A DNA stretch of 60,401 nt from Candidatus Omnitrophota bacterium (lineage in GTDB: Bacteria; Omnitrophota; Gorgyraeia; Zapsychrales; Zapsychraceae): assembly GCA_030637405.1 (NCBI GenBank), contig DAOWGP010000052.1, positions 1 through 60,401 on the forward strand. The letters are read 5' to 3'. The notes under the pieces were generated by a model. It saw only the letters and a program-made list of their open reading frames with translations. It ran no database searches and was not told the origin of the DNA. The position numbers and the translations under genes are program-made. Below are positions 1 through 58,090 of this stretch, piece after piece. The stretch's first letter is position 1, and each line of letters starts with the position of its first letter.

Positions 1-242
1 ATAAAATCAAATTGAAGAGGATTATCTGGATAGATGGTAATTCCTTCAACAATAGCCGGTGTATAGCTTGGGCTAAGAGTAATCATTGTCCCCGGGGCAG
101 GAAGATTAGCTACACCTGCCTGTCCGGCAGGCAGGCTTTGGGCATAGGAAACAGGCGTGATACTCATGCCAAGAAAAGGTATTAAGAGGCTGAGAATAAG
201 GACCCGACCGCGTGCCCTAAATCTTCTTTTGCGGATAAACAT
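1..242 (-). CDS. 5' end of a second giant-protein paralogue (runs off window; absent from ORF track)
   Basis: GGAGG RBS then ATG at 242; MFIRKRRFRARGRVLILSLLIPFLGMSITPVSYAQ...NLPAPGTMITLSPSYTPAIVEGITIYPDNPLQFDF aligns with NLPVPGSMVTMTPAFTPTMITGVNIYPDNPLKFDF of the 217..5970 protein; signal-peptide-like start. Confidence 0.85.
   Translation of the reverse strand, partial: MFIRKRRFRARGRVLILSLLIPFLGMSITPVSYAQSLPAGQAGVANLPAPGTMITLSPSYTPAIVEGITIYPDNPLQFDF
115..135. repeat. REP-like palindrome CCTGCCTG-TCCGG-CAGGCAGG inside coding sequence
   Basis: Perfect 8-bp arms; near-identical intergenic copy at 58065..58086. Confidence 0.75.
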
Positions 243-3200
243 TAATGAAATCCTCCCCGCGGCAAAGCCGCGTGGAAACCTTTTGATTGTTTCGCGTGTT
301 GTTTAAAACAATATTTATCCTGTACGGACAGTGCGTCGCGCTATTCTTAACAGGATTGTTTTTTTCAATCGCAAACCCTAACTCCATCGGTACCGATTGG
401 GAATCAGAATCCGCGTCAGCATACGGCGCGTCTTCACTTTCGGTCAATCCTAACAACAGCGGTAAATTGATCACCGGCGCAACATTGATAATCACGGGCG
501 CGAAACCCTGGATATTCATATTCCGTAAATCCCGGATCATCCGCGGCGCCGCCGGCATTACCACCCCGCTTCCGTCACTCTCAACCTGCATGTCCATTTC
601 ATTGGGGTTCAAGTCAATACCGCCTTTTTCCATTTGCTCAATCCCACTGCGTTCTCTGCCCATCATCGGCGAGGATGAAATTTCTGCGATTTTGTCATTC
701 ACCATAGTCAGCACTTGAAGCGCGCCCTCTTCATTTTGTCCCACATAATTCAAATTATCTAGATCCGAAATCTCCGCAGATTTCCCAAAATTAAGAATTA
801 GTGCGCCCGGACCAGCAGCTCGCGCCATGCCGGACCCTTTTGTGTTGTCTTCAGTATATTCATCATCCCATACTGAAATATACTCAGGAAGAAGATTATT
901 TCCTGTGATATCTTTAACCCAAGAAAGGCCTTCCTTTGCCGCTATGAATTTATCAGAAAAAGCCATTTGAAGAACACCATAATCCGGAAGCGCGCGTACA
1001 AGGATGTTTTTAGTCAATTCAGAACCCACAAAGAGTTTTTGAAATAATTCCTGACTACGAAGCGTCTTGGTCTCGAACCCCCCAGCTTTCTTCCCCCCAA
1101 TGAGAAGACGTAACCTTGTTGGATCCTCACGTCCACCAACGTCATCATCAAAGATGGCGGTATCAGGTAAGCCAAGCTCATATTTTACTCTTTTAAATTG
1201 TTGCATAACTTCAGCTACTTGCTTATCAGAGAATGGTTTCCGAAACAGATTTTCAACATCACCCTGCTTTTTTCCTGACTTCACAAAAGTTCGTTTCTCA
1301 CCGCCATTTCCCGTTATAACCAGAATACGATGCCGGATATCCCTGGGAAACTGCTCTAAAAAGACTTTATCAGCCCCAGTATTATCCTTAACGGTATAAA
1401 GCCCACCGGTAACCAAAACAAAATATCCTCCTGCCCTTAAAAATCGCTCAATCGCACCACGAACTTTGGGGCGGAGTTTTTCAAGAACGTTCTGCTTTTT
1501 CAATGCTGTTCCCTCTAGATCACTAAGAATCAGTCTCGGGTATTGATCTAGATTGTTCCAATCCCCAACAAAACTCTCAATGCCTTTCTGTACCTCTGCC
1601 GTCACCGGTGAGAAAGTTTTTTTACCCTCTGTACTATCGGGCGTTATAGGTGAAGAAGTAGCCCGGAATTCTTCCCACGTCAATGGTAATTCCGCAGTTC
1701 GTTTAACAATCTTCAGGAACGCATCCTTCTGCCACTCTAGAAACAACGGCATTCCCTCGCCTATTTCTTCACGCTGCGTTTTCAATTTATCATAAGTTTT
1801 ATCATAAACTGCCTCAGCATCAAAAGGCTTCATACTTTTCAGCCAGTACTTGTTCTCCATCAGCTCATCCCTGAAGACAGAAACAAGCGAATACAACATG
1901 TCGTAGGGATTATTCGGTAAAGAACTCTCATACGATACTAGCCATTGCAGCTGAGGATTTCCTCTCAGGCCTTCTATTTTCTTAAAATCATCAAAATATT
2001 CAACCAGTCTTTTGTAATCATGCTCTGAGAGGCTATTCGCAACATACTGGATTCTTCGATAGTCAACAGGTATTAGGGAAACCCCCCGGTTTTTAAGAGT
2101 TTGCCTTTCCACTTTTCCTGCCGTCTCCCAGTCCGCTCCAAACCCGATCTTATCCACAAGGTCATCACGCCCTTCCGGCACGAGACGCTTCACCCGCTCG
2201 ACATAATAAGACCGAAATAGGTCCGGAATAAGCTCCAGATAATCTTCGTCCGTCACGGAATTACCGATAAACCGAAGCTGGTACCCTTTCAGTTCCTGCA
2301 AATATTTTATACCCGCATAACTCTCCTTTTTCATTAAACCCCGCATAAATTCCGTTCGCGTAGATGGAGACACGCCTTCCTTTTCCACAATACCGTCAAC
2401 CGCTCGCAGAGCCTCTTCATCCAGCTCAAAACTTCTCGGGGCAATTCCCGATACAGCTTCCAGCCCATGAGTCAATCCTTTACCATACCGCCAGGCCAAT
2501 GCAGGGGCCTTGTCAAGGCCTCCTAACCCCCAAAATTGTTTTTGAACTCTGAAAAAGTCTTTGATAAATTTTTCCCCTTCTTGCTTTACAACAGCCGCCT
2601 CATCATCATTTACCGCGGCGCTCAAAGTATCATGTTTCTGCGCAAGAATATTTAAGATGCCCTCAAAAAAAGGCAATTGGTCAAACAGCAGAACCTTTTT
2701 TAATCTGACTTCCCGCTTCTCTTCTTTGAAACCATTAGTTGTGGACCTGTCCCAGAATCGTAAGGTTAAATTCTCACCCCGCAAATCTACGATCTGTCCG
2801 CCGGCAAGCAACCCCTGCCCACGGCCAAAAAGCCCCTTCAGGTCTTCTTCCGTTTCATCATTCAATGTCCCAAATCTATTTTTACTGCTGAGTTGAAACT
2901 TGAGCAATAAAAACCGCCCCAGGGCTATAGTACGCATATCACCGCTAAAATATCTTTCATTTACTTCTTCCCCTTCCAATGGGCGCTCACCTAATTTGAC
3001 CAATGGCTGGGGATGCTTAAAGATATCAGTGTCCGCAATCACCTCTTTAAGCCACTCCACAAGCGCTTTTTCTCCTTCAACACGCATACCTTCCATTATT
3101 TCATCCAAGTTAATGCCATAACGGCTAAACAATATCTTATGTTTTGGAAGAAGAAGGCCATATATGCGGTTTCGCATGATCTGTTCTGCAAGTGACCTGT

Positions 3201-5970
3201 TGTTAATCTGAAAATGCGTCTGCTTAGCAGCATCAGGCCCTCTTTTGGCAATGGCCTCGGCATTAAGGCGGTCGACCAAGGGATCCTCTGTAAATCCCCG
3301 GAGGGCTACAGTTCCCGCGTGCTGCTCCTCAAAGGAAGGTCCAGTTCGCCCCCGCGTCCCTTCCCGCATCATAGATCTAGGACGGCGTATTCTCGCAGAC
3401 ACATTCACATTGTACGACAGGTCAAAATGTTCGAAAGCAGTTAATGTCAGCATACCTTCGAAATGAACGATTTCTCTTTTATCTCCTCCTGGTTTAACCG
3501 GATTCCATATCTCCAAAGCTTCTACAGCACTTTCCTGGCTGAGAAAAACATCCTCTCCCTTATCTTCCATCGCGACAAAAATCCCCTCAGCTCTTGATTC
3601 TATCGTATGCTTAGCCTTGTTAACTGTCTGTCCCTTGTGATTAATGGATATATTAAAAATGTTTTCATTTCCTGCCGGGTTCTTCAGCTCAATCCACATA
3701 CTGCCTAAGAAAAACTTTGCCGATTCTCCCGGCTCTACAATTTTATCTTTTAATTTCTTAGTTCTCTCTCCCCTCTTACCCGTATTTTTATCTCTTTCAA
3801 CCTTCCATACCCTGTATAAAATATTCCCGTTTTCCCGAAATTCAACCGTCAACTCCTTCTCGCCATTAAAAAGCGTCATTAGATTATTTTCATCCAGCCC
3901 GTATTTCAACTGCCCCTTAGCGGTTTGATCGTATAAGGGCGCTACAGCAGGTTTATTTTTAGCCACTAATCTTACAAATTCTATATACCGTTTAACATTA
4001 AATTTTATCAGCGGGTCTTCTGTGGCTGGGTCCGGCCGATCGGTTTTTTCCAGTAAAAAATCATCAAAAGATTTGGGCAGAGTAATCCAGAATTTATTTT
4101 CCTCAGATACAACGGCCGCGATAATATCCGCAACCGTTGTTTTGCCGCTACAAAATGTACCCGCACCCCCAAATGCTAAACGCAGCTTATCAGTGTTTTC
4201 TAGCAATAGCTTTATTTGCTCTCGTATAAGATCCTTATAATCTTGCTCCTCAGAAAACTGATCTGAGAGCGCAAGAATTAAATTATCCCGCAATTCCTGC
4301 AAGCGCCCAACCACTGGTTGAGCATCCTGCTTTAATTCCGCAAAAAGCTGCGCTTTTCGATATTCAAGCCCCTCCTTTAATTCTGCTAACTCTTTATCCT
4401 TTGCATGAAATCGCGTAATCAGAGGATTTTTTTTAAATGTTTCTTCTAAAGATGATTGCATTGCTTTAACAAACTGTTGGTCATCCACCAAGTCAACAAA
4501 ATTTTGTTGGATAAGATCATAAAATGTTTCTAACTCTTGTTTCATTTCAGAACGATCATCCTGTAACTGAGCTATTTTCTTATGATAAAACTCAATCGCA
4601 TCTAAATGTGAGAACCCCTTAACTTCTCCTGGTTCTTTGATTGCGTCATCTCCCATCACCGGCGAGGAGGTGGGGCTTTTACCCGGTTGCGATTGCGCGT
4701 CTAATTCTGTTATCACAACTTCACTGTCTGATTCTGAAGCCTCAATGGCCGATGAGGCTTCTCGCTCTGCAATCACCTCAAGCTCTACTGTTGTTTTCTT
4801 AAAGTCACCTTCTTTACCTTGAATGGGTGAACTTACAGTTCCTCCTCCATCTTTCTTCTGCACAACAACTGTTTCCGGTGCATATGGCAACGCGCCGCCC
4901 GAGAAATACTTTCTTGGAATCACTTCTTGAGTCGCCGGATCGTAGTCTTCCTTAATGTAATTGTAAACGCCCTTCTCAAAGGCCTCGATATATTGCCGGT
5001 AAATTTTCTCTTTGACTTGTGTATCCTCCGCATCAACGCCTTTGGTCATGTTTTGGTCAACATAGACCTGGCCTAAAACGCTTTCTTTAAGAGCCTGTTT
5101 ATACCACACTGCTAAGATCATAGAATTATAAATCTGTCTTAAATTGGCGAATGTTGCCCCCTCATTGACTTCACGTTCAATTTCCGGGATCAAAACCTCG
5201 CGCACCACCTGGGAGGAAACACCGCTGATCGTTTCGATATCCTCCAGGCTAACATTTCCTAACCCGTGTTTTGTGCTCGTTTTATTGCTTTCAAGGGCCA
5301 GGTAATCTTCTTCAAGCATCACATTCAGATAACTGCTGATCACAAACGCGCCTTTGGCATGTTCATAGACTTTAGCTTCCTTGGGCACAATCCAGATCTT
5401 ATTAAAGGTATTCATCGGGATTTCCGTAGTACCGAACTGTTCATAAGCCTTTTTGTAAACGCGATCCCAGAATTTCTTCCCCAGTTCATCTTCCGGATAC
5501 ATCAATGAAGCGCTCAGTTGTTTGAGCAGGTAATCCTGCGCCAAGAGATCACGTCCCATTTCTGTACGGCCGAACCCTTCGGGGATAATTCGGTCTTTTT
5601 CATAGGGCGAGAGGTTGACCCACATCTCATCTTCAGGGACAGTGAGCGACGCCATAAAATACTTAATGAGCTTCTCCGATTCATCCTCAAAGGCCTCGTC
5701 ATTAAGGTCGGAATCACCTCTGTTAATAATAAAGTCGAATTTAAGGGGATTGTCAGGGTAGATGTTAACCCCTGTTATCATCGTAGGGGTAAAGGCTGGC
5801 GTCATGGTAACCATGCTCCCGGGAACCGGCAGATTTAATATGGTCTGCGGCATGATTTGGGCATCGACCGGCGGCGGAATAATTACGCTGAAAATAAACG
5901 CAAAAGCAATGAAGGCGGATAAAGCCCGGTAGATAAAAGTAGACCGTCGCTTTTCGATAAAGGTGATCAT
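217..5970 (-). CDS. Large secreted modular protein: conserved N-domain, P-loop kinase-like and HAD-like cargo, GGIDL C-terminal motif
   Basis: 1917-aa ORF with GGAG RBS and N-terminal signal; GAGTFCSGKTT Walker A (~aa 601); LILSDLEGT HAD motif I (~aa 1481); KGGIDLNP...GFAPVIINV near the C-terminus; true 3' end uncertain. Confidence 0.8.
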   Translation of the reverse strand: MITFIEKRRSTFIYRALSAFIAFAFIFSVIIPPPVDAQIMPQTILNLPVPGSMVTMTPAFTPTMITGVNIYPDNPLKFDFIINRGDSDLNDEAFEDESEKLIKYFMASLTVPEDEMWVNLSPYEKDRIIPEGFGRTEMGRDLLAQDYLLKQLSASLMYPEDELGKKFWDRVYKKAYEQFGTTEIPMNTFNKIWIVPKEAKVYEHAKGAFVISSYLNVMLEEDYLALESNKTSTKHGLGNVSLEDIETISGVSSQVVREVLIPEIEREVNEGATFANLRQIYNSMILAVWYKQALKESVLGQVYVDQNMTKGVDAEDTQVKEKIYRQYIEAFEKGVYNYIKEDYDPATQEVIPRKYFSGGALPYAPETVVVQKKDGGGTVSSPIQGKEGDFKKTTVELEVIAEREASSAIEASESDSEVVITELDAQSQPGKSPTSSPVMGDDAIKEPGEVKGFSHLDAIEFYHKKIAQLQDDRSEMKQELETFYDLIQQNFVDLVDDQQFVKAMQSSLEETFKKNPLITRFHAKDKELAELKEGLEYRKAQLFAELKQDAQPVVGRLQELRDNLILALSDQFSEEQDYKDLIREQIKLLLENTDKLRLAFGGAGTFCSGKTTVADIIAAVVSEENKFWITLPKSFDDFLLEKTDRPDPATEDPLIKFNVKRYIEFVRLVAKNKPAVAPLYDQTAKGQLKYGLDENNLMTLFNGEKELTVEFRENGNILYRVWKVERDKNTGKRGERTKKLKDKIVEPGESAKFFLGSMWIELKNPAGNENIFNISINHKGQTVNKAKHTIESRAEGIFVAMEDKGEDVFLSQESAVEALEIWNPVKPGGDKREIVHFEGMLTLTAFEHFDLSYNVNVSARIRRPRSMMREGTRGRTGPSFEEQHAGTVALRGFTEDPLVDRLNAEAIAKRGPDAAKQTHFQINNRSLAEQIMRNRIYGLLLPKHKILFSRYGINLDEIMEGMRVEGEKALVEWLKEVIADTDIFKHPQPLVKLGERPLEGEEVNERYFSGDMRTIALGRFLLLKFQLSSKNRFGTLNDETEEDLKGLFGRGQGLLAGGQIVDLRGENLTLRFWDRSTTNGFKEEKREVRLKKVLLFDQLPFFEGILNILAQKHDTLSAAVNDDEAAVVKQEGEKFIKDFFRVQKQFWGLGGLDKAPALAWRYGKGLTHGLEAVSGIAPRSFELDEEALRAVDGIVEKEGVSPSTRTEFMRGLMKKESYAGIKYLQELKGYQLRFIGNSVTDEDYLELIPDLFRSYYVERVKRLVPEGRDDLVDKIGFGADWETAGKVERQTLKNRGVSLIPVDYRRIQYVANSLSEHDYKRLVEYFDDFKKIEGLRGNPQLQWLVSYESSLPNNPYDMLYSLVSVFRDELMENKYWLKSMKPFDAEAVYDKTYDKLKTQREEIGEGMPLFLEWQKDAFLKIVKRTAELPLTWEEFRATSSPITPDSTEGKKTFSPVTAEVQKGIESFVGDWNNLDQYPRLILSDLEGTALKKQNVLEKLRPKVRGAIERFLRAGGYFVLVTGGLYTVKDNTGADKVFLEQFPRDIRHRILVITGNGGEKRTFVKSGKKQGDVENLFRKPFSDKQVAEVMQQFKRVKYELGLPDTAIFDDDVGGREDPTRLRLLIGGKKAGGFETKTLRSQELFQKLFVGSELTKNILVRALPDYGVLQMAFSDKFIAAKEGLSWVKDITGNNLLPEYISVWDDEYTEDNTKGSGMARAAGPGALILNFGKSAEISDLDNLNYVGQNEEGALQVLTMVNDKIAEISSSPMMGRERSGIEQMEKGGIDLNPNEMDMQVESDGSGVVMPAAPRMIRDLRNMNIQGFAPVIINVAPVINLPLLLGLTESEDAPYADADSDSQSVPMELGFAIEKNNPVKNSATHCPYRINIVLNNTRNNQKVSTRLCRGEDFINVYPQKKI

Positions 5971-6384: not shown

Positions 6385-7203
6385 TTAATACAATCCATAT
6401 CCCCGCATGATCCAGACAATGATGGCATCGCCCCAGAACAAGCATATAATGGCACCCAGGACCAGGAAAGGCCCATAGGCGATCGCTGTATCTTTAGTGC
6501 GGATCTTCTCAATAATACCATAGACCGCGCCGAAAAACGGAGCGATAAAGAAAGCCAATATGGCCATCTTCCACCCCATAAAGGCCCCGACCATAGCCAT
6601 AAGCTTAACGTCACCGCCGCCCATAGACTCTTTCTTGAAAAGAAAGTCTCCAAGCATACCCATTAAATAAATGGATCCGCCGCCAACCAAAACACCTAAA
6701 AGCGATAGGCCCAAAGACTGTAAATGGGCCATGATCAAAGACTGCCCATGCAGCACAACATCATGCAACTGGGGGATAAACACGCTGAAAATAATCCCGG
6801 CTATCATGCCGCCGATACTGATTTCATCAGGAATGATCCGGTGTTCAAAATCAACAAAAGTCGCCACAATAAAACCAGAGATCATAACAAGATAGGGCCA
6901 TAAAAGAACCGTTAGCCCAAAATACCGGTAAAAAAATAAAAAGATGGATGCCGTGATCAACTCAATAATAAAATACCGTATAGAGATTTTCGCGCCACAG
7001 AACCGGCATTTCCCACGTAAAATTAAATAACTGAGAAAGGGAATATTGTCGTGCCAGGGGATCATTTTTTTGCAATGCACACAATGCGAACGGGGCGCGA
7101 CAATAGATTTCTCATGAGGCATACGGACAATACACACATTCAAGAAACTTCCGACGATCGCGCCTAAAACAAACATAAAAACACCGATAACGTCAATACC
7201 CAT
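6385..7203 (-). CDS. pilD: Prepilin peptidase/N-methyltransferase (A24)
   Basis: GSFLNVCIVR, RSHCVHC and RGKCRFC Zn motifs, MGGGDVKL catalytic motif, multiple TM helices. Confidence 0.93.
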   Translation of the reverse strand: MGIDVIGVFMFVLGAIVGSFLNVCIVRMPHEKSIVAPRSHCVHCKKMIPWHDNIPFLSYLILRGKCRFCGAKISIRYFIIELITASIFLFFYRYFGLTVLLWPYLVMISGFIVATFVDFEHRIIPDEISIGGMIAGIIFSVFIPQLHDVVLHGQSLIMAHLQSLGLSLLGVLVGGGSIYLMGMLGDFLFKKESMGGGDVKLMAMVGAFMGWKMAILAFFIAPFFGAVYGIIEKIRTKDTAIAYGPFLVLGAIICLFWGDAIIVWIMRGYGLY

Positions 7204-12577: not shown

Positions 12578-13306
12578 TTATTGATCGTTATATTTATACT
12601 TTATCTTGCTGATGCGAACCACTTTCCTTTTACCATTATTAGGACTAACATAATTCTTATCAAACAACACATAATTTGTGCCATCTTCTTTCACAGAACT
12701 CGGAAAACCAATTCCATCATATCTTTTTGATTTAATGAAATCTGAAATAATTTGAGTCGAAGCATAATGTATGTGACGTAATTGAGGAAGAACTGGGGAT
12801 GAGACTAAAAATTGAACAGTATCGATTAAAGTAACCTTATGAGAATCAGCACCTGCTGCAAGTCTGACCGCACCGCTTGTGATCTTGGAAAAATCTATTA
12901 TTTGAATATCCTTATTTAATGTTAACGTAAATATGGTGACATAAGCAGATAAAAGAGGCTTCACTTCATATATTGCCGTCTCCATTTCTTTCGATAAATA
13001 TTGATATGAAAATCCAGGAGGATTGAATCTGCCTCCACAATTTTGTGTAGTATTATTGTATTGGTATTCTAAAGGAGAAGATAATCCGAAATCTTTTATG
13101 GTATCATGAATTTTAGCCCAATAAAATTTCGTGCCTTCTTTAAAAGTAATTTTATAAGAATATTGGTCAATAAGTTCATTTAATAACTCTTTTGTGTTTT
13201 CTAAAGGAAAGGACCGATTGTGTTCCTTAGACCTAAGAATAAAAAAACGAAATCTTTCTTCAAAAGGCAAACTGTCGATTTTCTTTGACGAATCTGAAGT
13301 TGTCAC
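12578..13306 (-). CDS. RES-domain protein (NAD+ phosphorylase/ART-fold family), cassette-borne
   Basis: GGRFNPPGFSYQYLS, TAIYEV, YASTQIISDFIK, YDGIGFPSS, GTNYVLF. Confidence 0.85.
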   Translation of the reverse strand: MTTSDSSKKIDSLPFEERFRFFILRSKEHNRSFPLENTKELLNELIDQYSYKITFKEGTKFYWAKIHDTIKDFGLSSPLEYQYNNTTQNCGGRFNPPGFSYQYLSKEMETAIYEVKPLLSAYVTIFTLTLNKDIQIIDFSKITSGAVRLAAGADSHKVTLIDTVQFLVSSPVLPQLRHIHYASTQIISDFIKSKRYDGIGFPSSVKEDGTNYVLFDKNYVSPNNGKRKVVRISKIKYKYNDQ

Positions 13307-39406: not shown

Positions 39407-40402
39407 TTATGGTACTTCGATCTCGTCAAAGATCATTCGGATAATATCTTCTGAAGTTTTTTCTTCGGCTTCCGCCTCGTAACTGACAATCACACGATGA
39501 CGCAAGACATCCATGCCGATCGATTTGATATCCTGCGGCGTAACATAGCCTCTGCCCTGAAGAAAGGCATAGGCCTTCGCGGCAACCGTTAAATAAATCG
39601 TGGCCCGTGGAGAAGCCCCGAATTGTATAAGGCCCTTTAAATCCGGCAATTGATAATTCTGCGGCTGGCGTGTCGCGTCCACAATATCCACGATATAGTG
39701 TTCGATCTTTTCATCCAAGTAGACCTCGTCGACAACACTGCGCGCATTGAGGAGATCTTTCGCGGTAATGATTTCACGAACATCGATCTGCTTGTTGGTA
39801 AAGGACATCCTTTTTAAGATCTGGTATTCCTCTTCCTTGTTCGGATAATCAATCACAACCTTGAGCATAAAACGGTCGACCTGGGCTTCGGGCAAGGGAT
39901 AGGTGCCTTCCTGCTCGATCGGGTTTTGCGTCGCTAAAACAAGGAAGGGTTCGGCAAGCTGCCGCGTCTCATCGCCGATCGTGACCTGACGTTCCTGCAT
40001 GGCCTCTAAAAGCGCGCTTTGAACTTTGGCCGGCGCGCGGTTGATCTCATCGGCTAAAATAATATTCGCGAAAATGGGGCCGGTTTTTACTTTAAAATCT
40101 CCTGTCCGTTGATCATAGATCAGGGTCCCGGTCAGGTCAGCAGGTAACATATCCGGCGTAAACTGTATGCGCTGGAATTTTGCCTGAAGCGTTGATGAAA
40201 GCGTCTTTACAGCGGTGGTCTTAGCAAGCCCGGGAACCCCTTCAAGAAGAATATGGCCATTCGCCAGAAGACCGACCATCAGGCGATCCAGAAGATATCT
40301 CTGGCCAACAATGACTTTTTGCATTTCAAGAAGAACCCCCTCGATGAACCCGCTTTCTTTTTTGACCTTTTCATTGATAAGTGTAATATCCTGGTTTGTC
40401 AT
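39407..40402 (-). CDS. MoxR-family AAA+ ATPase
   Basis: GVPGLAKT, RIQFTPD, DEINRAPAKVQSALLE, NPIEQEGTYPLPEAQ. Confidence 0.95.
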   Translation of the reverse strand: MTNQDITLINEKVKKESGFIEGVLLEMQKVIVGQRYLLDRLMVGLLANGHILLEGVPGLAKTTAVKTLSSTLQAKFQRIQFTPDMLPADLTGTLIYDQRTGDFKVKTGPIFANIILADEINRAPAKVQSALLEAMQERQVTIGDETRQLAEPFLVLATQNPIEQEGTYPLPEAQVDRFMLKVVIDYPNKEEEYQILKRMSFTNKQIDVREIITAKDLLNARSVVDEVYLDEKIEHYIVDIVDATRQPQNYQLPDLKGLIQFGASPRATIYLTVAAKAYAFLQGRGYVTPQDIKSIGMDVLRHRVIVSYEAEAEEKTSEDIIRMIFDEIEVP

Positions 40403-40609
40403 TATCCTTTACCTCCCGAATAGTTAAATAACGCATAGAAAAGCGTTATTAATAGTAGTATTATTTAATTTTATAATACTTATCATTTCTGTCAATACAA
40501 ATAATGTGGATTTATGGATTTAACCTGTAGACGACCATGAGAATGGAGCAAGAAACAATCAGAGCGGCCCCCGTCTTAACGGGATCCGTTGAAACGAATG
40601 ATTATGTGC

Positions 40610-40702
40610 TTATAATTTTTTCAGGCGCCGCGACATTTCTTTATATGCTTCTTCATCACGTCGCATGCCGACTTTTAAAACAAGGATTTTTATCTTCCAC
40701 AT
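40610..40702 (-). pseudogene. RelE/ParE-like toxin remnant (in-frame internal deletion)
   Basis: MWKIKI-LVLKVGMRRDEEAYKEMSRRLKKL*, 30 aa, starting 6 bp after the antitoxin stop. Confidence 0.65.
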
Positions 40703-40708
40703 TTTGGA

Positions 40709-40978
40709 TTATTTCAAAAGGCTTTCAATATTAATATAATCGCTGTCTTTGCTGTTTTTAAAACGTTCCTGAGCAATAAAGCCTAAAACAAGATCTTCAG
40801 CCATCTCTAAAACATTTTGCATATGCGTATATTCTTCAGTTGACATTAAGACCGCTTGAGGTTTGCGCCTTTTTTCAATAATGACAAGCCCTTTACGCGC
40901 TTTTTCAAGAATTTTTTCAATTCCCGTGCGCAATTCTGAAACGCCGACTAATGTGGTATTTTCTTCAATCGTAATCAT
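40709..40978 (-). CDS. Phd/YefM-family antitoxin
   Basis: VGVSELRT, VIIEKRRKPQAVLMS.EEY, acidic C-terminus. Confidence 0.85.
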   Translation of the reverse strand: MITIEENTTLVGVSELRTGIEKILEKARKGLVIIEKRRKPQAVLMSTEEYTHMQNVLEMAEDLVLGFIAQERFKNSKDSDYINIESLLK

Positions 40979-41211
40979 TTTTTTGACCTAATCTTTCATT
41001 TTTATACTTAAAGCATAATATTTATCATTATGATTGTTAAATCAACAGCCATTCTAACAGTTCAATTGGCAATTAATTTGGCATTAAGAAACGGATCGAG
41101 TCTTGAAGGTTGAATTAAAACCTGTGGTGTTTTCAATTTTCAAGATTTGATCCCTTTTTCAGATTTCTTAGCGCGCATTAAGTATGCGCCCCCGGAATTC
41201 CGTAATATTTT

Positions 41212-41451
41212 CTAAATCAAATCTGGCAAATTTTCTCTTGGCAATAAAAGATGTATAGAGCGTGCTTGGCCAGGTATTTTTGAAATGAATCCACATTTAT
41301 CAAGTGTTTTTATCATTTGGTGTATTGATGACCAAGTAACTTTAAAGTATTTTTGCATATCAGCTTCCGAAGGTGGATGCCCATGGATTCTTGTATAATA
41401 ATAGATAAATGCTAGGTATTGGCCTTGTCGATATGTGTATTTATTTTTCAA
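41212..41451 (-). CDS. LexA-type/MarR-like winged HTH regulator
   Basis: T.RQGQYLAFI, PPSEADMQKYF.V, IHQMIKTL, PGQARSI. Confidence 0.8.
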   Translation of the reverse strand: MKNKYTYRQGQYLAFIYYYTRIHGHPPSEADMQKYFKVTWSSIHQMIKTLDKCGFISKIPGQARSIHLLLPRENLPDLI

Positions 41452-41504
41452 ATTATTTTAATGGAATATCATAAATTATTTTTTATATTATCAAAATTTA
41501 TCCT

Positions 41505-41528
41505 GTAGGGTTCAGGCAGGCCTGAACC
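41505..41528 (+). repeat. GTAG-family REP
   Basis: GTAG-GGTTCAGGC-AG-GCCTGAACC, perfect 9-bp stem. Confidence 0.75.
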
Positions 41529-41690
41529 TCTAAAGAATTAATATTATTTTCGTTTGCATTCCATGTTGCGGGATTATTCATGACATGAAGAGTTCCGGAG
41601 ACGCGTGTCCTGGAATTGTTTAAACATCTTCAAAAGATCAAAGAAACGCCTGTCTCAAAAGTGACTGTCACCTTTTTTTTCTTTTTTTTA

Positions 41691-42101
41691 TTATTCGTGC
41701 CTATATATTTTTTCTTCAATTAATAAATCCTGAATATTTTCAATTTCCCGGTCTATTTCTCGCAAATTTTGTTTCAGACTTTTGCTTTCTTCGGCTTTTT
41801 TATAAATGTATTCTAATTTTCTTTCCGAATATCGCCCTTCATTATACTTTGGAACAAAATAGAACAATAATCCAAAAACAATGAGTATAGCAAATAAGCC
41901 AATTATTGTATTTCTTCTATCACGTGCGACTTTTTTATCTTTGTTTTGTAAACGAGTTCGCCAATCTTCAAAATTATTTTGAGAATCCCATTGTGCAACA
42001 ACAAATCTACGTTCTTCTTCAGAAAGACTGTTATATAATTGCGCAAGTCTTTTATGTTCTTTGATGTCTTGCTCAGATATTTCAGGTGGATAATAACTCA
42101 T
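41691..42101 (-). CDS. Cassette hypothetical protein, single TM + coiled coil
   Basis: 136 aa, starts just after core GTTATGA; its own attC is missing. Confidence 0.75.
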   Translation of the reverse strand: MSYYPPEISEQDIKEHKRLAQLYNSLSEEERRFVVAQWDSQNNFEDWRTRLQNKDKKVARDRRNTIIGLFAILIVFGLLFYFVPKYNEGRYSERKLEYIYKKAEESKSLKQNLREIDREIENIQDLLIEEKIYRHE

Positions 42102-42123
42102 TATTTTACCTTATTATATATTT

Positions 42124-42201
42124 TCATAACATTCAAGCTCACTGCTGGTAGCCGACACCGAAAGGCGGTGGATAACAGTCAGGTGCAGTGAGTCGTTAGG
42201 T
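42124..42201 (-). other. attC site (78 bp)
   Basis: ACCTAAC-GACTC-ACTGCACC...GTGAGC-TTGAAT-GTTATGA; R'' complements the cassette start GTTAGGT at 42874..42880. Confidence 0.85.
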
Positions 42202-42215
42202 GTTTATAGATTATT

Positions 42216-42875
42216 TTACCCATTATTTTTTTTCAATAAAAATTGCACAAAACTCTCTCTAACTACCATATAAAACCATTCTGTTAGGCAATTCCCTGGG
42301 ATTGATATTGATACCTGACATTTCCTTTTGTTCCTATCTATAAACGTGTCTATAGATGTGGTATTTTCTTCTATGTTTCTAAATAATCCTTTATGTACTA
42401 TAATGCAGCGATTACGTTGATATAGGTATTGCAAAACATCAACAAATGTGCTTCTTGTAGGACAGTTATTAATTCTTTTCTGAAATTTAATCATATTTTT
42501 ATATGAGGAAGGACAATATTTGTTCAAAAAATTTTGGAATTCTTTTGATTTTTTTATTTTTCTTTCTATTTCATAGTTCTCTAAAAAATCTGTATATTTA
42601 ATACCTTTTGTTTTTCTAAAATATGCCAAATAATTGCATAATGTTTCAACCGCAATATAACACAATAAATTAGCTATAACAGGGTGCTTACTCTTAAGTA
42701 TTTTTGAATCAATAAGTTTTAGGTTAGCTATCAAGAAATATCTTTTAATATATTCATTATGTTTGTTTTCCAGTTGACTAATCAACTGTTGAAAGCAGTT
42801 CAAATCTTTAAATTTCGAAGAGTACAGAGGGTATATTTTTTTAATAATTTGCTTTTCATTCATAATTTTATACAC
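42216..42875 (-). CDS. Cassette hypothetical protein (HEPN-like RxxxxH motif)
   Basis: 219 aa, AT-rich; helical CYIAVETL and LYQRNRCIIVHKG; start may be ATG 42863. Confidence 0.7.
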   Translation of the reverse strand: MYKIMNEKQIIKKIYPLYSSKFKDLNCFQQLISQLENKHNEYIKRYFLIANLKLIDSKILKSKHPVIANLLCYIAVETLCNYLAYFRKTKGIKYTDFLENYEIERKIKKSKEFQNFLNKYCPSSYKNMIKFQKRINNCPTRSTFVDVLQYLYQRNRCIIVHKGLFRNIEENTTSIDTFIDRNKRKCQVSISIPGNCLTEWFYMVVRESFVQFLLKKNNG

Positions 42876-42940
42876 CTAACGACCAAGTTTACCTGCCGCT
42901 ATGGAGCGCAGCGGAATAGCGGTCAGGTGTAGTGTTATGT
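42874..42940 (-). other. attC site, degenerate (R''-L'' spacer missing)
   Basis: ACATAAC-ACTACACC-TGACCGCTAT...ATAGCGGCA-GGTAAAC-TTGGTC-GTTAGGT. Confidence 0.75.
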
Positions 42941-43450
42941 GTTTTTATTTAATTCATAATCCTTTTTGCATGCATTCATAAAACTCGATGCATTGATTAT
43001 AAAATCACTTAGATTAGGAGTTTCTCCGCCTTTTTGTAATATCTGAAACTTTTTTAATTGCTCAATGGGATATCTGCATTGCCGAACAAATTCATCTTCT
43101 GAAAGTCCAGTGCTTAGTCCATGCGATACAATAGATTTAACTCTCACCGCATCGGTTATAATTTGCTTTAATTTTTCTTCGGGTTTAATCGATTTTTCTA
43201 TCACCAATTTAATATTTGCAATATTTGTTTCGTTTTGTATGAATTTTTTTCCTGTTTCATTTGAGGGAACCTCAGAAAATATGGTGTTGATTACGGCAGT
43301 AGCCAATATTTCGGAATAACTTTCATCAAAATTCACCTTGCATTCTGACAACAGATAGAATAATAAACCCATCTTAACAGAATCAACAGCATCCGAAGCC
43401 ATTTGAAAGGTTTTCTTTTTATTTCCAAATAGTAAACCAAATATCCCCAC
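42935..43450 (-). CDS. Cassette hypothetical protein
   Basis: 171 aa, AAGGA RBS, MGIFGLLFG start; stop TAA lies inside R''. Confidence 0.75.
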   Translation of the reverse strand: MGIFGLLFGNKKKTFQMASDAVDSVKMGLLFYLLSECKVNFDESYSEILATAVINTIFSEVPSNETGKKFIQNETNIANIKLVIEKSIKPEEKLKQIITDAVRVKSIVSHGLSTGLSEDEFVRQCRYPIEQLKKFQILQKGGETPNLSDFIINASSFMNACKKDYELNKNT

Positions 43451-43485
43451 TATAATTCCTTTTTATTTTCACGCAACATTCAAAC

Positions 43486-43626
43486 TCACCTGACTTTGAG
43501 CGCGCCGACAACCTTCTGCCCCTTACGCCATTTTAAGCGGCGGACCACATCTTTGGGAAGCGTCACATAATAGGTGTTCGTTTTTCCCGTCACCCCGATC
43601 TTCCACACCTCTTGCCCCTTGGCCAT
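43486..43626 (-). CDS. Small AbrB/MazE/SpoVT-like protein, probably 3'-truncated (not in ORF track)
   Basis: MAKGQEVWKIGVTGKTNTYYVTLPKDVVRRLKWRKGQKVVGALKVR*, 46 aa. Confidence 0.65.
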   Translation of the reverse strand: MAKGQEVWKIGVTGKTNTYYVTLPKDVVRRLKWRKGQKVVGALKVR

Positions 43627-43700
43627 ATCCCTTACCCTTCTCCTCACTTCTTACTTCTTACCTAACCCCTTACCACTTAGTATATACCCGAGTATGTACC

Positions 43701-44749
43701 CTATCCGGCGTAATCCGCTATCTTTTCATCCAGCAATTTCTGGTTTAAGAGGAATCCCTCCCGCACGATAATATCCGCGTCCCGCTCGCCGGAGCGATAA
43801 AACACGTCGGCAACATACCGGCCGTATTGATCGATAGCATATGTTTTAACGACGACAACGAGCGCCTCTTTTAAGACGCCTTCAAGGGACGCTTTCGCTT
43901 TTTTCCCCGTTGAGATGACAATTCGGCCGCGTTAATACTCTTTAAGCGCAAGCGTTTTCGAAGGATAAATCCCGCGCCTGTTTCGACCTCACAAACAAGC
44001 GTATCCCCATCCACCACTCTCACCACAAACGCTTTGTACGTATAGATATTTCCTCTGGCCACGCGGGACGGCTCAATCCGAATCGTATTCCGCTCTTCCT
44101 GAATTGTAACAATATCCCCTTCCTTCATAGTTCCTATTTCAGCGGCATTAACAGGTTTGTAGGATTCAAACCCCAAATCAATCATGGCCCGCCCATTTAT
44201 GGGAGATAAAACAAGCCTGCAGGTATTTAATGTGCCGCGCCGGACGAGTAATTTGGCCATCGGACAGGCTTGATGTGCCGATATCGGCGCCGCTAAGGAT
44301 CGCGTTTTGATTTTATGTTCCTTTAAAGCGTTCCTTAATTGGCGGGTTGACCATTTATTGTTGATGGTCTTCGAGGCATATTCTTCCCTCACACCGGCAT
44401 CTTTGATGGAAATAAGCGCCCGGATATTCGTCCACCCCAATTGGTCACGCGCATGGCCAATTCCCTTACTCAGGTAAAATTGGCGCATATACTTTAGATT
44501 TGTCAGTGAAAATCCTGAACCGTAACACCGCGCTAAATCATTCGATAAGCGCTCTAACAGCCGCTCGCCATAAGCGGCCATGATCCGGTTATTTTGCTCA
44601 ACTTTAACGATTTGCCGGCCGATCTGCCAATAGGCTTCCGCCTTGAGATGATTGAGGACATCCCGGGCCTTTTCCTGAGCTTCATCATAGATACGGGAAA
44701 CATGTCCGAGAAGATTGGTGTATTCTGATTTGGAAAGCGCGCTGGGCAT
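43701..44749 (-). CDS. DUF1016 N-terminal domain fused to thermonuclease (SNase), split by a -1 frameshift near 43900
   Basis: YWQIGRQI, GFSLTNLKYMRQFY, WSTRQL; VVDGDT, RLRL..INA.E; -1 frame supplies DQYGRYVADV and LLNQKLL. Confidence 0.82.
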
Positions 44750-54113: not shown

Positions 54114-54177
54114 GCTAGAAAATTTTTCCCAAAAAAATATGAGTACCGCCATTCTAATGGCGGTACGAATTTTCTTG
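54114..54177. repeat. Dispersed hairpin element, copy 2 (supplies the stop codon of the TPR gene)
   Basis: GTACCGCCAT-TCTA-ATGGCGGTAC with flanks matching 6309..6381. Confidence 0.75.
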
Positions 54178-57906: not shown

Positions 57907-58090
57907 AGAAAAACGTCTAATATTAATCGTGATATGCCGAGTAATATTAATATTATATAAGTTCAACATATTGTAACATATACAATTAGATAGCTTCCAG
58001 CATTTTCTCGGATTTTTTACAGTAATGGCTTCCTCTGAATGTTTTAAGGCATACAGCAAAGAAGACCTGTCTGCCGGCAGGCAGGTACGA

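What the first reader, a model, noticed from the sequence alone, without database searches (positions are those of the whole stretch)
217..5970. Secreted 'chassis + cargo' giant protein with enzyme modules bounded by SSP motifs
Seen: signal peptide, a ~360-aa N-domain whose start is shared with the adjacent paralogue, and a GGIDLNP...GFAPVII C-motif. These enclose a uridine/pantothenate-kinase-like P-loop domain, an unrecognised middle region and a HAD-like domain. Six S-S-P-hydrophobic-type motifs (VSSPI, ASSAI, TSSPV, TSSPI, TFSPV, SSSPM) occur only at module borders (~aa 378-437, 1438-1452, 1766). Established: such kinases and HAD phosphatases normally act on cytoplasmic metabolites. Inference: an exported polyprotein that delivers metabolic effectors, possibly to a host or prey cell, with SSP as processing or joining sites. 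This is the best candidate for an undescribed system.
Basis: partly seen in the sequence, partly recalled or inferred. Interest (0 to 1): 0.85.

Follow-up and report, generated by a model that had tools for sequence, protein, structure and literature searches.

The report
Two-capped exported enzyme-carrier protein family
This gene belongs to a very large, apparently undescribed family of Omnitrophota proteins that share an export signal, a conserved head and a conserved tail predicted to clasp each other, and between them carry ever-changing modules that look like cytoplasmic enzymes.

Summary
It has a Sec-type signal peptide, a ~330-aa N-domain ("N-cap"), a ~60-aa C-terminal GGIDLNP...GFAPVII domain ("C-cap"), and six SSP-type motifs (6 seen, 0.74 expected). 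The N-cap defines a huge family: 8097 cluster representatives, named Omnitrophica/Omnitrophota where a name exists. Genomes hold up to about 33 copies.

Caps are constant and cargo is not. In one genome, 30 of 30 ORFs carry both caps, yet only 2 of 435 pairs share any cargo similarity. Cargo elsewhere includes PGI, PGM and PGK, all of lower glycolysis, and NAD salvage. The family's PGK cargo copies examined are extra, diverged copies.

Two points are new. The caps are predicted to dock (ipSAE 0.80, best control 0.00) through their invariant residues. Module borders carry lineage-specific punctuation, SSP[VILM] or DxAM[LVIM].

This protein's own cargo is an orphan. Its kinase-like and HAD-like labels rest only on motifs and language-model look-alikes.

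Export is inferred. Delivery into a host and cleavage at SSP are untested. Published work notes enzyme domains in giant Omnitrophota proteins; I found no mention of caps, docking or punctuation.

The parts
217..5970 (-). Whole ORF, 1917 aa plus stop (P0001)
5860..5970 (-). Sec-type signal peptide, aa 1-37: basic n-region, hydrophobic core, VDA|Q site
   Evidence: Read from the sequence and hydropathy. Across the family the n-region net charge averages +3.05 and is positive in 97% of 303. A small-x-small-Q site occurs in 262 of 327. No dedicated predictor was run.
4876..5859 (-). N-cap, aa ~38-365, ending in IPRKYFSGG. This is the conserved head domain of the family.
   Evidence: 8097 representatives at E<=0.001. 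55 invariant columns among 41 sequences. AF2 model: pLDDT 68, pTM 0.66. No solved fold matched.
4651..4875 (-). Linker zone 1, aa 366-440, with punctuation motifs SSPI (aa 380-383, window 4822-4833), SSAI (aa 406-409, window 4744-4755) and SSPV (aa 435-438, window 4657-4668)
1657..4650 (-). Cargo module 1, aa 441-1438, with no internal punctuation. It holds a coiled-coil-like stretch (~464-590), a P-loop PRK/uridine-kinase-like part (aa ~590-960, window 3091-4203) and an unassigned part (aa ~960-1438).
   Evidence: Walker A read. Atlas look-alikes 0.92-0.93. No Pfam or PDB support. No relative found in the family or the database.
1603..1656 (-). Linker 2, aa 1439-1456, with SSPI (aa 1439-1442) and FSPV (aa 1453-1456)
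676..1602 (-). Cargo module 2, aa 1457-1765, HAD-IIB-like (a lead only)
   Evidence: NCBIfam Cof subfamily E 0.044, 13.4 bits against cut-off 137. Atlas 0.95 to Hydrolase_3/S6PP clusters. No PDB sequence hit below E 0.1.
625..675 (-). Punctuation 3, aa 1766-1782: SSPM plus a short spacer before the C-cap
   Evidence: The same motif sits at the same distance in the paralogues' C-caps.
442..624 (-). C-cap, aa 1783-1843: GGIDLNP ... GFAPVIINVAP ... LPLLLGL
   Evidence: Invariant G13 G14 I15 D16 G52 P55 I57 P62 L66 in 11 sequences. The strict motif pair found in 144 of 222 proteins always lies 56-135 aa from the C-end. Predicted to bind the N-cap.
220..441 (-). Acidic and variable C-terminal tail, aa 1844-1917. 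Its last codons overlap the start of the next gene.
1..240 (-). Start of the adjacent paralogue (signal peptide plus the first ~45 aa of its N-cap), cut by the window edge

Best explanation
P0001 is an ordinary member of a very large family of exported, modular 'two-cap carrier' proteins. In the genomes sampled, the family was found only in one class of its phylum; source names, where given, are Omnitrophica/Omnitrophota.

Shown:
- Every complete member has a signal-peptide-like start, a ~330-aa N-cap and a ~60-aa C-cap at the extreme C-terminus.
- The part between the caps is unrelated from one paralogue to the next.
- That part is built of modules. Many are cytoplasm-type enzymes and many have no known family.
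- Module borders carry a short peptide motif that is fixed within a lineage: SSP[VILM] here, DxAM[LVIM] in others.

Predicted:
- The C-cap's invariant GGID and GFxPVII segments bind a pocket made of the N-cap's invariant WVNLSP, QDY.LK, NK.WI and LRQ segments.
- So head and tail clasp each other, either within one molecule or head-to-tail between molecules.

Inferred:
- The whole polypeptide crosses the inner membrane by Sec and works outside the cytoplasm: in the periplasm, on the cell surface or at a host interface.
- The cargo modules are accessory, diverged copies rather than the cell's housekeeping enzymes.
- The punctuation marks flexible joints between independently exchangeable modules. 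Whether these joints are also cut is open.

For this protein the cargo is an orphan block of about 1000 aa with a P-loop kinase-like part, followed by a HAD-IIB-like module.
For: Family size and placement:
- 8097 representatives at E<=0.001 and 6280 at E<=1e-30. In all 150 listed, the match starts within the first 66 residues. Hit lengths run from 369 to 5312 aa.
- The 119 listed relatives of 1054-3355 aa cover only 17-27% of the query. 68 of them carry precomputed Pfam families, none common to all. Names, where given, are Candidatus Omnitrophica/Omnitrophota.
- 162 further members of 3356-5000 aa carry whole pathway sets. P0164 has PPDK, GAPDH, TIM, PGK and enolase.

Distribution:
- The N-cap is in 15 of 151 sampled genomes of the phylum, all labelled same order or same class as the window's genome.
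- The C-cap is in 8 of 151, all among those 15.

Two-cap rule (genome G129):
- 30 of 30 ORFs have both caps; 20 were picked by the C-cap and 10 by the N-cap.
- Only 2 of 435 pairs share cargo at BLAST E<=1e-5.
- N-cap and C-cap identities co-vary: Mantel r 0.69, reached by 0 of 2000 permutations.

Cargo swap between near-identical caps: P0001 against P0002 shows N-cap 303/363 identical, C-cap 64/109 identical and no significant cargo alignment.

Docking:
- Complex prediction score 0.80 (runs 0.80, 0.82, 0.77); best of 3 controls 0.00.
- That mark was reached by 58 of 80 solved complexes and 2 of 110 mismatched pairs. These counts hold only roughly, because my own alignments were used.
- The runs agree in at least 55% of contacts; the partner's pLDDT is at least 52.
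- 18 of 55 invariant N-cap residues lie in the 65-residue interface, against 10.3 expected (p 0.005).
- By my reading, 7 of the 9 invariant C-cap residues lie in the interface.
- In an AF2 model of a 603-aa full-length homologue, the C-cap start is the only confident part after the N-cap (pLDDT 70-78 at residues 531-550).

Export:
- The n-region is positive in 97% of 303 members. A small-x-small-Q site occurs in 262 of 327.
- P0001 has no hydrophobic segment between the signal peptide and the C-cap.
- 207 of 237 complete members have no strong hydrophobic segment in the cargo.
- LysM occurs in a paralogue's cargo.

Accessory copies:
- G000 has a canonical 404-aa PGK (533 bits) plus a fused PGK (271 bits).
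- In the order, 28 of 31 genomes match PGK. Most of these matches are stand-alone ~400-aa frames scoring 514-549 bits.
- Copies inside large frames (1330-8222 aa) occur in 6 genomes and score 271 bits or less.

Punctuation:
- SSPV is 50-fold and DAAM 27-fold over expectation in 240,721 aa of cargo.
- The two types are nearly exclusive. Proteins with two or more motifs: type A only 67, type B only 97, both 9.
- Border test. Examples: 0 of 10 motifs fall inside PGI of P0008. In P0072 the motifs sit about 10 aa either side of PGK and just after TIM.
- The three motifs of P0191 all lie in segments with pLDDT below 50.
- Codons vary (12 combinations at 19 sites), so selection acts on the peptide.
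Against: - No localisation, expression or cleavage data exist. No RNA run holds the gene.
- Many cargo families (PGK, PPDK, hexokinase, NAD synthase, response regulators, HTH, SNF2, DnaJ) need ATP, NAD or DNA, and have no obvious use outside a cytoplasm. So the inferred location is paradoxical.
- The docking is a model's confidence only. The cap models are of middling quality (pLDDT 68, 59 and 52-57). Cis against trans docking cannot be told apart.
- The Mantel correlation can arise from shared descent of the caps without any contact.
- The signal peptide was judged by hand and hydropathy, not by a trained predictor.
- 30 of 237 complete members have one or more strong hydrophobic segments in the cargo, so topology may differ among members.
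- Punctuation is weak or absent in 118 of 291 cargos and in genome G057. It is therefore not essential to the family.
- One of four motif matches in P0164 lies inside Enolase_N.
- This protein's cargo labels lack any significant profile or structure match.
Confidence: 0.55

Rival explanations
1. This is an exported polyprotein whose modules are cut apart at the SSP (or DxAM) motifs and delivered as metabolic effectors into a host or prey cell. The caps would serve as the delivery or translocation device.
For: - The cargo range spans the functions of a cytoplasm: glycolysis, NAD salvage, the glyoxylate shunt, protein kinases, HTH, SNF2 helicases and DnaJ. That makes sense inside another cell, not in open water.
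- Short, lineage-fixed, peptide-level motifs sit exactly at module borders.
- There are tens of paralogues per genome with unrelated cargo, like effector repertoires.
- The fused copies are extra to the housekeeping genes.
- Passages read in Seymour 2023 and West-Roberts 2023 propose host-dependent or predatory lifestyles for Omnitrophota and suspect cleavage of giant proteins.
Against: - No protease domain was found in P0001 or in the caps by Pfam. No invariant His or Cys appears in the N-cap.
- No fold match to any translocator or pore former. The best Foldseek E-value was 0.13 and the best Z 3.1.
- Proline directly after the conserved serines is, from recall, a poor P1' residue for most endopeptidases.
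- 118 of 291 cargos lack repeated punctuation.
- Multi-enzyme blocks such as GAPDH-TIM-PGK in P0164 carry no motif between the enzymes.
- The fused PGK has lost more than half of the canonical invariant positions.
- No dedicated secretion system lies beside the gene; the window is otherwise housekeeping.
Confidence: 0.2
2. A structural or adhesive coat. The proteins are exported and linked head-to-tail through N-cap:C-cap docking into a surface layer. The enzyme-like modules are mostly degenerate pseudo-enzymes that serve as folded spacers or ligand-binding units, not as catalysts.
For: - Predicted docking between caps that are shared by all paralogues.
- Fused PGK copies keep only 53-96 of 158 canonical invariant positions.
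- 25 of 30 members in G129 have no Pfam family at E<=1e-5.
- The cargo of P0001 is an orphan.
Against: - Some cargo domains score very high against enzyme families. PGI in P0008 scores 630 bits and Enolase_C in P0164 scores 336 bits. This speaks for retained activity.
- Pathway-coherent sets (lower glycolysis, NAD salvage) are hard to explain as spacers.
- Cis docking is as likely as trans.
Confidence: 0.15
3. A membrane-tethered cytoplasmic metabolon. The N-terminal hydrophobic segment is an anchor, and the cargo stays on the cytoplasmic face, where ATP and NAD are available.
For: - The cofactor needs of the cargo enzymes.
- West-Roberts 2023 (passage) warns that an overlooked transmembrane segment could give a wrong extracellular call.
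- Nielsen and Lui 2026 (passages) read TM-only giants as cytoplasm-facing.
- 30 of 237 members have hydrophobic segments in the cargo.
Against: - A positive n-region in 97% of members places the N-terminus inside and everything after the single hydrophobic segment outside.
- A conserved small-x-small-Q site fits signal peptidase I.
- 207 of 237 members, P0001 included, have no second membrane segment that could bring the cargo back inside.
- LysM occurs in cargo.
Confidence: 0.1

Closest known systems
Giant multi-enzyme proteins of Omnitrophota. 'Archaeovorins': West-Roberts et al. 2023, bioRxiv 10.1101/2023.11.21.568195, passages read. 'Multi-enzyme metabolic clusters': Nielsen and Lui 2026, bioRxiv 10.64898/2026.06.07.730766, abstract, section 8 and passages read.
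   Same: - Same phylum.
- A signal peptide or membrane association.
- Sugar-metabolism and glycolytic enzyme domains (PGM, PGI, TIM, FBPase, PPDK, starch synthase, ROK, radical SAM, response regulator) inside polypeptides predicted to be extracellular.
- A suspicion that the proteins are cut into pieces.
   Different: - Those papers treat proteins of 10,000 aa and more (up to 147,155 aa), often with many transmembrane helices and C39 or S8 peptidase or SecA-like domains.
- This family runs from about 600 aa to at least 5312 aa and mostly has no membrane segment in the cargo.
- It comes in tens of copies per genome.
- It is defined by an N-cap and a C-cap, which the passages I searched do not mention. 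The same holds for punctuation motifs. West-Roberts states that information about cleavage points is lacking.
- Whether the 10,000-aa giants start with the same N-cap was not tested. My searches stopped at 5000 aa.
MARTX toxins (recalled, no paper read)
   Same: Conserved N- and C-terminal regions flank a variable array of effector modules that differ between strains. The modules are separated by linkers at which processing occurs.
   Different: - MARTX toxins leave by type I secretion without a Sec signal.
- Their arms are glycine-rich repeats.
- They carry their own cysteine protease domain.
- Their cargo is toxic, not metabolic.
- Pfam found no RTX repeat or protease domain in P0001.
Type IX secretion cargo with a C-terminal sorting domain (recalled)
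   Same: A Sec signal peptide, a variable enzyme or adhesin body, and a small conserved domain at the very C-terminus shared by tens of proteins in one genome.
   Different: - T9SS cargo has no conserved N-terminal domain.
- The sorting domain is recognised by Pfam models such as PF18962, which did not match P0001. That family is listed on two other family members, P0109 and P0235, presumably in their cargo.
- T9SS is, from recall, confined to the Bacteroidota group.
Cohesin-dockerin assembly of cellulosomes (recalled)
   Same: A small C-terminal docking module binds a larger receptor module, so that many different exported enzymes can be assembled outside the cell.
   Different: - Here both modules sit on the same polypeptide.
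- No sequence or fold likeness was found.
- The cargo is cytoplasm-type enzymes, not glycoside hydrolases.
Polymorphic toxin systems with demarcation motifs, such as VENN in CdiA (recalled)
   Same: A short conserved peptide marks the border between a conserved carrier and exchangeable modules.
   Different: - In those systems only the C-terminal tip varies, it is a toxin, and it comes with an immunity gene.
- Here the middle varies and several modules are strung together.
- The motif differs by lineage, and no immunity-like partner gene was seen.

Membership tests
Two-cap carrier family (defined here) | N-cap directly after a signal-peptide-like start | tested here: met
   aa 38-365, 100% self match, 59-85% identity to relatives
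Two-cap carrier family (defined here) | C-cap (GGID ... G..P.I..I.P...L) at the extreme C-terminus | tested here: met
   window 403-654 (-) matches the C-cap profile at E 3.5e-28
Sec signal peptide (signal peptidase I type) | Basic n-region, hydrophobic h-region, small residues at -3 and -1 | tested here: met
   Read from the sequence plus hydropathy. No trained predictor was run.
PRK / uridine kinase family (PF00485) | Match to the family profile above the gathering score | tested here: not met
   No Pfam hit at E<=1. No PDB sequence hit. Only Atlas look-alikes at 0.92-0.93.
PRK / uridine kinase family (PF00485) | Walker A P-loop GxxxxGK[ST] | tested here: met
   GGAGTFCSGKTT read. The motif definition is recalled.
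HAD superfamily, subfamily IIB (Cof / Hydrolase_3 PF08282) | Match to the family profile above its cut-off | tested here: not met
   NCBIfam Cof 13.4 bits against cut-off 137, E 0.044. No Pfam hit. Atlas 0.95 to Hydrolase_3 clusters.
HAD superfamily, subfamily IIB (Cof / Hydrolase_3 PF08282) | Motif I DxDx[TV] with both aspartates (recalled definition) | tested here: not met
   The sequence reads SDLEGT: the second acid is Glu, not Asp.
Archaeovorin / giant Omnitrophota proteins | Giant size (tens of thousands of aa) with many transmembrane helices and C39/S8 peptidase or SecA-like domains (as in the passages read) | tested here: not met
   1917 aa, no such Pfam domain, no internal hydrophobic segment
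Archaeovorin / giant Omnitrophota proteins | Cytoplasm-type sugar or glycolytic enzyme domains in a predicted extracellular polypeptide of Omnitrophota | tested here: inconclusive
   Met by many family members. Only leads exist for P0001 itself.
MARTX toxins | Glycine-rich RTX-type repeats and a cysteine protease domain | tested here: not met
   No Pfam match
T9SS cargo | C-terminal sorting domain recognised by Pfam or NCBIfam models | tested here: not met
   No match in P0001
Cohesin-dockerin | Dockerin or cohesin fold or profile | tested here: inconclusive
   No Pfam match. The C-cap was not searched on its own.

The most novel reading that the evidence does not exclude
The family is a new kind of protein export and delivery architecture. 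In this reading, self-clasping carriers take whole stretches of cytoplasmic metabolism out of an ultra-small, host-dependent bacterium. Examples of such cargo are lower glycolysis, NAD salvage and the glyoxylate shunt. The metabolism would be placed on or in the partner cell. The N-cap grips the C-cap's GGID segment, perhaps even acting on it enzymatically. The lineage-specific punctuation motifs (SSP[VILM], DxAM[LVIM]) would be the sites where a co-evolving factor cuts or handles the modules. That would be an 'exported metabolism' taking about 5% of the genome.
Probability: 0.2. Interest if true: 0.95.

Novelty: new variant of a known kind. Interest (0 to 1): 0.78.

Why it matters
Ultra-small Omnitrophota spend a large share of a ~2-Mb genome on these proteins. 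In G129, 30 members sum to 38,242 aa, about 115 kb or about 5%.

The literature I could read treats their large enzyme-bearing proteins as poorly conserved and of unknown processing. Three results change that picture.

1. Two compact, highly conserved caps give a simple handle to find, count and classify thousands of such proteins.
2. The punctuation motifs give candidate module borders. [quoted passage not shown]
3. The predicted head-to-tail clasp is a concrete hypothesis about how they assemble, testable at the bench with mutations.

The findings also sharpen a real paradox. ATP- and NAD-dependent enzymes, and even DNA-binding domains, sit behind a canonical export signal with no way back through the membrane.

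Tried and rejected
Searches that gave nothing useful
- Whole-protein Pfam, NCBIfam and PDB-sequence searches: nothing significant. The SPATA1_C, FGGY_N, GlpG and 3ec6 rows are below cut-off and taken as chance.
- PDB-sequence searches of the kinase-like and HAD-like parts alone: nothing below E 0.1.
- Fold searches of the N-cap model: Foldseek best E 0.13; VIA wide best Z 3.1 (rmsd 6.7, 106 aligned). This shows no match found, not a new fold. The weak rows for ClyA-type toxins (NheA, MakB, MakE) have TM-scores of 0.11-0.15 and were not pursued.
- VIA wide search of the full-length P0191 model: only a helical hairpin of the cargo matched, Z up to 5.6.
- Search for relatives of the cargo (aa 441-1765) among proteins of 1054-3355 aa: only the protein itself.
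- RNA evidence: no RNA holder listed. The DNA is held nearly whole (0.90-0.97 of sampled words) by three further runs of one cold-seep metagenome study, besides a run that may be the source.
- ATP/ADP translocase (PF03219) in the own genome: no match, but the control rang in no genome, so the search says nothing.
- Paper PMC10407285 (passages) concerns small SpeD fusions and has no bearing here.
- Supplementary files of papers are closed. The domain catalogues of West-Roberts 2023 and Nielsen and Lui 2026 may list members of this family, and I could not check them.

Ideas rejected
- Punctuation as a DNA-level recombination signal: the SSP codons differ (12 combinations at 19 sites).
- Cargo held in the cytoplasm between two membrane segments while the caps meet outside: 207 of 237 complete members, P0001 included, have no strong hydrophobic segment in the cargo.
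- C-cap as a plain transmembrane anchor: in G129 the hydrophobic LPLLLG end is replaced by short polar ends and the segment carries Arg and Glu.
- Tat export: no conserved twin-arginine motif in the sequences read.
- N-cap as a Cys or His protease: no invariant Cys or His.

Claims of 'not in print'
- These rest (four motif strings, 0 papers).
- They also rest on term searches within three papers and on searches.

Rows dropped
- Two G129 C-cap matches with stop codons inside (C1:951863 and C1:307825) were not fetched.
- Three further G129 C-cap matches were not fetched for the count. In one search their frames (767, 744 and 619 aa) already showed an N-cap match.
- In one search, only alignments of 80 aa or more from pairs covering at most half of the query cargo were used (78 queries).

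Full report
**What is at the locus**

Window 217-5970 (-) is one open frame of 1917 aa. The rest of the window is ordinary chromosome. It holds prepilin peptidase, shikimate dehydrogenase, LeuA, IlvC, PFK, SAM synthetase, AdoHcy hydrolase, PTS enzyme I and EIIA, an ABC exporter and an AsmA-like protein. No dedicated secretion system lies beside the gene.

The window is contig C32 of a 2.09-Mb, 146-contig genome estimated 92% complete. Relatives that carry a name are called Candidatus Omnitrophica or Omnitrophota. Near-identical DNA occurs in runs labelled cold-seep metagenome.

**The observation**

- The protein starts with a basic stretch, one strong hydrophobic segment and VDA|Q.
- Residues ~38-365 form a domain that ends in IPRKYFSGG.
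- The adjacent downstream gene starts at window 240 and overlaps the target's last codons. It begins with the same signal peptide and domain, and then runs off the window.
- GGIDLNP (aa 1783) and GFAPVII (aa 1822) are present.
That is 6 observed against 0.74 expected, and 4 strict SSP[VILM] against 0.06. Neither count was reached in 5000 shuffles.
- The enzyme labels are the weak part. No Pfam, NCBIfam or PDB-sequence match is significant.
- What remains for those labels is a Walker A loop, a HAD-like DLEGT in which the second acid is Glu, and language-model look-alikes. The look-alikes are PRK/uridine kinase (0.92-0.93) and Hydrolase_3/S6PP (0.95).
- The cargo as a whole (aa 441-1765) found only itself among proteins of similar length. 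It has no relative among 221 other family members.

**A very large family defined by two caps**

The first 400 residues find 8097 cluster representatives at E<=0.001, and 6280 at E<=1e-30. In all 150 listed, the match is at the very start of the hit. Hit lengths run from 369 to 5312 aa.

In the 1054-3355 aa class, 399 proteins match. The 119 listed cover only 17-27% of the query. A further 162 match in the 3356-5000 aa class.

The tail is just as constant. In the 144 of 222 stored proteins where a strict two-part C-motif was found, it lies 56-135 aa from the C-end. Most of the rest carry a looser form.

In a sample of 151 genomes of the phylum, the N-cap occurs in 15. All 15 are labelled same order or same class as this genome. 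The C-cap occurs in 8, all among those 15.

In the near-complete genome G129, every one of 30 ORFs examined has both caps, N-cap first and C-cap last. Twenty were picked through the C-cap and ten through the N-cap. These 30 ORFs sum to 38,242 aa.

**Cargo is exchangeable**

- P0001 and its closest relative P0002 share 303 of 363 N-cap residues and 64 of 109 C-cap residues, with no significant alignment in between. P0002 carries a PGI domain instead.
- Within G129, only 2 of 435 paralogue pairs share any cargo similarity, while N-cap and C-cap identities co-vary (Mantel r 0.69; 0 of 2000 permutations reach it). Shared descent of the caps could give this correlation without physical contact.
- Cargo families recorded on relatives include PGI, PGM, UDP-glucose pyrophosphorylase, PGK, TIM, GAPDH, enolase and PPDK.
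- They also include FBPase, hexokinase, starch synthase, glycogen phosphorylase, isocitrate lyase with malate synthase, and NAD-salvage sets.
- Beyond metabolism they include methyltransferases, HEAT repeats, protein kinases, HTH, SNF2 and DnaJ.
- P0164 strings PPDK, GAPDH, TIM, PGK and enolase on one chain.
- Much cargo is dark. 51 of 119 listed relatives have no precomputed Pfam family. In G129, at most 5 of 30 members match any family at E<=1e-5.

**The enzyme cargo is accessory and diverged**

A paralogue on contig C107 carries a full-length PGK domain (E 3e-79). The genome also has a normal 404-aa PGK scoring twice as high.

In the order, 28 of 31 genomes match PGK. Most of these matches are stand-alone frames of about 400 aa scoring 514-549 bits. 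Copies inside large frames occur in six genomes and score 271 bits or less.

Five fused PGKs keep 53-96 of the 158 positions that are invariant in ten canonical PGKs. The C107 copy keeps 69 and is 30% identical to its own genome's PGK.

**The caps are predicted to dock**

The N-cap model (pLDDT 68, pTM 0.66) is a mixed alpha/beta domain with no match among solved structures. The best Foldseek E-value is 0.13 and the best Z is 3.1.

Folding the N-cap together with the C-cap gave a score of 0.80 (runs 0.80, 0.82, 0.77) against 0.00 for the best of three controls. That mark was reached by 58 of 80 solved complexes and 2 of 110 mismatched pairs. These counts hold only roughly, because my own alignments were used. 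The runs agree in at least 55% of contacts, and the partner's pLDDT is at least 52.

The interface uses the most conserved residues of both parts. On the C-cap these are GGIDLNP and GFAPVIINV. On the N-cap they are the WVNLSP, QDY.LK, NK.WI and LRQ segments. Eighteen of 55 invariant N-cap residues lie in the interface, against 10.3 expected (p 0.005). Seven of nine invariant C-cap residues also lie there (my reading).

An AF2 model of a 603-aa full-length homologue places the C-cap start with pLDDT 70-78, while the cargo before it stays below 50. I could not inspect its contacts. Whether the clasp is within one molecule or between molecules is open.

**Punctuation**

In 240,721 aa of cargo, the most over-represented four-letter words are SSPV (50-fold), ASSP, SSSP, SSPI and DAAM (27-fold). 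They belong to two motifs, [AS]SSP[VILM] and DxAM[LVIM].

The two motifs hardly ever occur together. Of 291 cargos, 67 have two or more of the first only, 97 of the second only, 9 both and 118 neither.

The type is a property of the genome:
- All G000 paralogues use SSP.
- G129 uses DxAM and has no SSP.
- G057 uses neither.

The motifs sit at module borders:
- Ends of local cargo alignments lie within 15 aa of a motif 161 of 634 times, against 41.1 +/- 8.2 for random positions.
- Motifs lie deep inside alignments 42 times, against 219.8 +/- 16.1.
- P0008 has ten motifs and none inside PGI.
- P0072 has motifs about 10 aa before and 28 aa after PGK, and 8 aa after TIM.
- In P0164 the GAPDH-TIM-PGK block has none inside it. 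One match does fall within Enolase_N.
- In the P0191 model, all three motifs lie in low-confidence segments.

The SSP codons vary, so the peptide is what is conserved.

In G000 the motif is 20 times denser in family ORFs than in all other long ORFs. It also marks several whole-contig ORFs of up to 4843 aa, which look like pieces of still larger genes.

**Location**

Across the family the n-region is positive in 97% of 303 members, and a small-x-small-Q site is present in 262 of 327. P0001 has no hydrophobic segment between the signal peptide and the C-cap. 207 of 237 complete members have none in the cargo.

So the caps and the cargo should lie on the same side, outside the cytoplasm. This is inference from sequence. 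It clashes with the cofactor needs of much of the cargo, a clash that West-Roberts et al. also noted for their giant proteins.

**What is known**

- Seymour et al. 2023 (passages) report giant ORFs as poorly conserved and of unclear role.
- West-Roberts et al. 2023 (passages) report glycolytic domains predicted to be extracellular and suspect cleavage. They state that cleavage points are unknown.
- Nielsen and Lui 2026 (abstract, section 8 and passages) catalogue Pfam content and topology of proteins of 10,000 aa and more.

None of the passages or term searches showed a conserved N-terminal or C-terminal domain, a docking idea or linker motifs. Four motif strings occur in no paper of the library. 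Supplements could not be read.

**Verdict**

The thing is a member of a large, uncharacterised, two-capped carrier family that belongs to the known phenomenon of enzyme-bearing exported proteins in Omnitrophota. It adds three new features: the caps, the predicted clasp and the lineage-specific punctuation. Cleavage at SSP and delivery to a host remain attractive but untested.

Noticed in passing
G000 contigs C58, C37, C111, C62, C38, C61, C6 (own genome, outside the window): Whole contigs are single open frames. C58 is 4149 aa with 16 SSP[VILM] motifs and C37 is 4843 aa with 9. These are fragments of still larger genes that use the same punctuation without visible caps.
   Followed up: partly
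window 217-240: The ATG of the adjacent paralogue (window 240-238, - strand) lies 21 nt upstream of the target's stop codon (219-217). The two genes therefore overlap in different frames.
   Followed up: partly
window 5780-5810 (aa ~45-55 of P0001): A nearly invariant LNLPxPG(T)M motif directly follows the signal peptide. It lies outside the predicted N-cap:C-cap interface, and its role is unexplained.
   Followed up: no
window 6385-7203 (-): A prepilin (type IV leader) peptidase gene sits directly upstream of the target on the same strand. No link to the family was tested.
   Followed up: no
window 12578-13306 (-): A RES-domain protein lies in a low-GC stretch (GC 0.35 at 12-14 kb). This may be a toxin-antitoxin island.
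   Followed up: no
window 40001-44000: A second low-GC stretch (GC 0.357) was not examined.
   Followed up: no
window 44825-48100 (-) and 54154-58059 (-): Two further large ORFs: one of 1091 aa with no Pfam family, and one of 1301 aa with TPR repeats. Neither matched the N-cap.
   Followed up: partly
G129 contigs C1 and C3 (loci L020-L029, L049-L068): Family members lie in tandem arrays. Three are adjacent at C3:215-227 kb and four lie within C1:1037-1079 kb. G000 also has two tandem pairs, which points to expansion by local duplication.
   Followed up: partly
L014 (G000:C107) aa 801-1182: The fused PGK has changes in segments that I recall as PGK signatures, for example N320K, E327K and G376A in the numbering of the genome's own PGK. 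Whether it is still a kinase is open.
   Followed up: partly
P0030, P0040, P0049, P0104, P0138, P0311 and others: A minority of family members carry a strong hydrophobic segment 18-90 aa after the N-cap. Their topology may differ from that of P0001.
   Followed up: no
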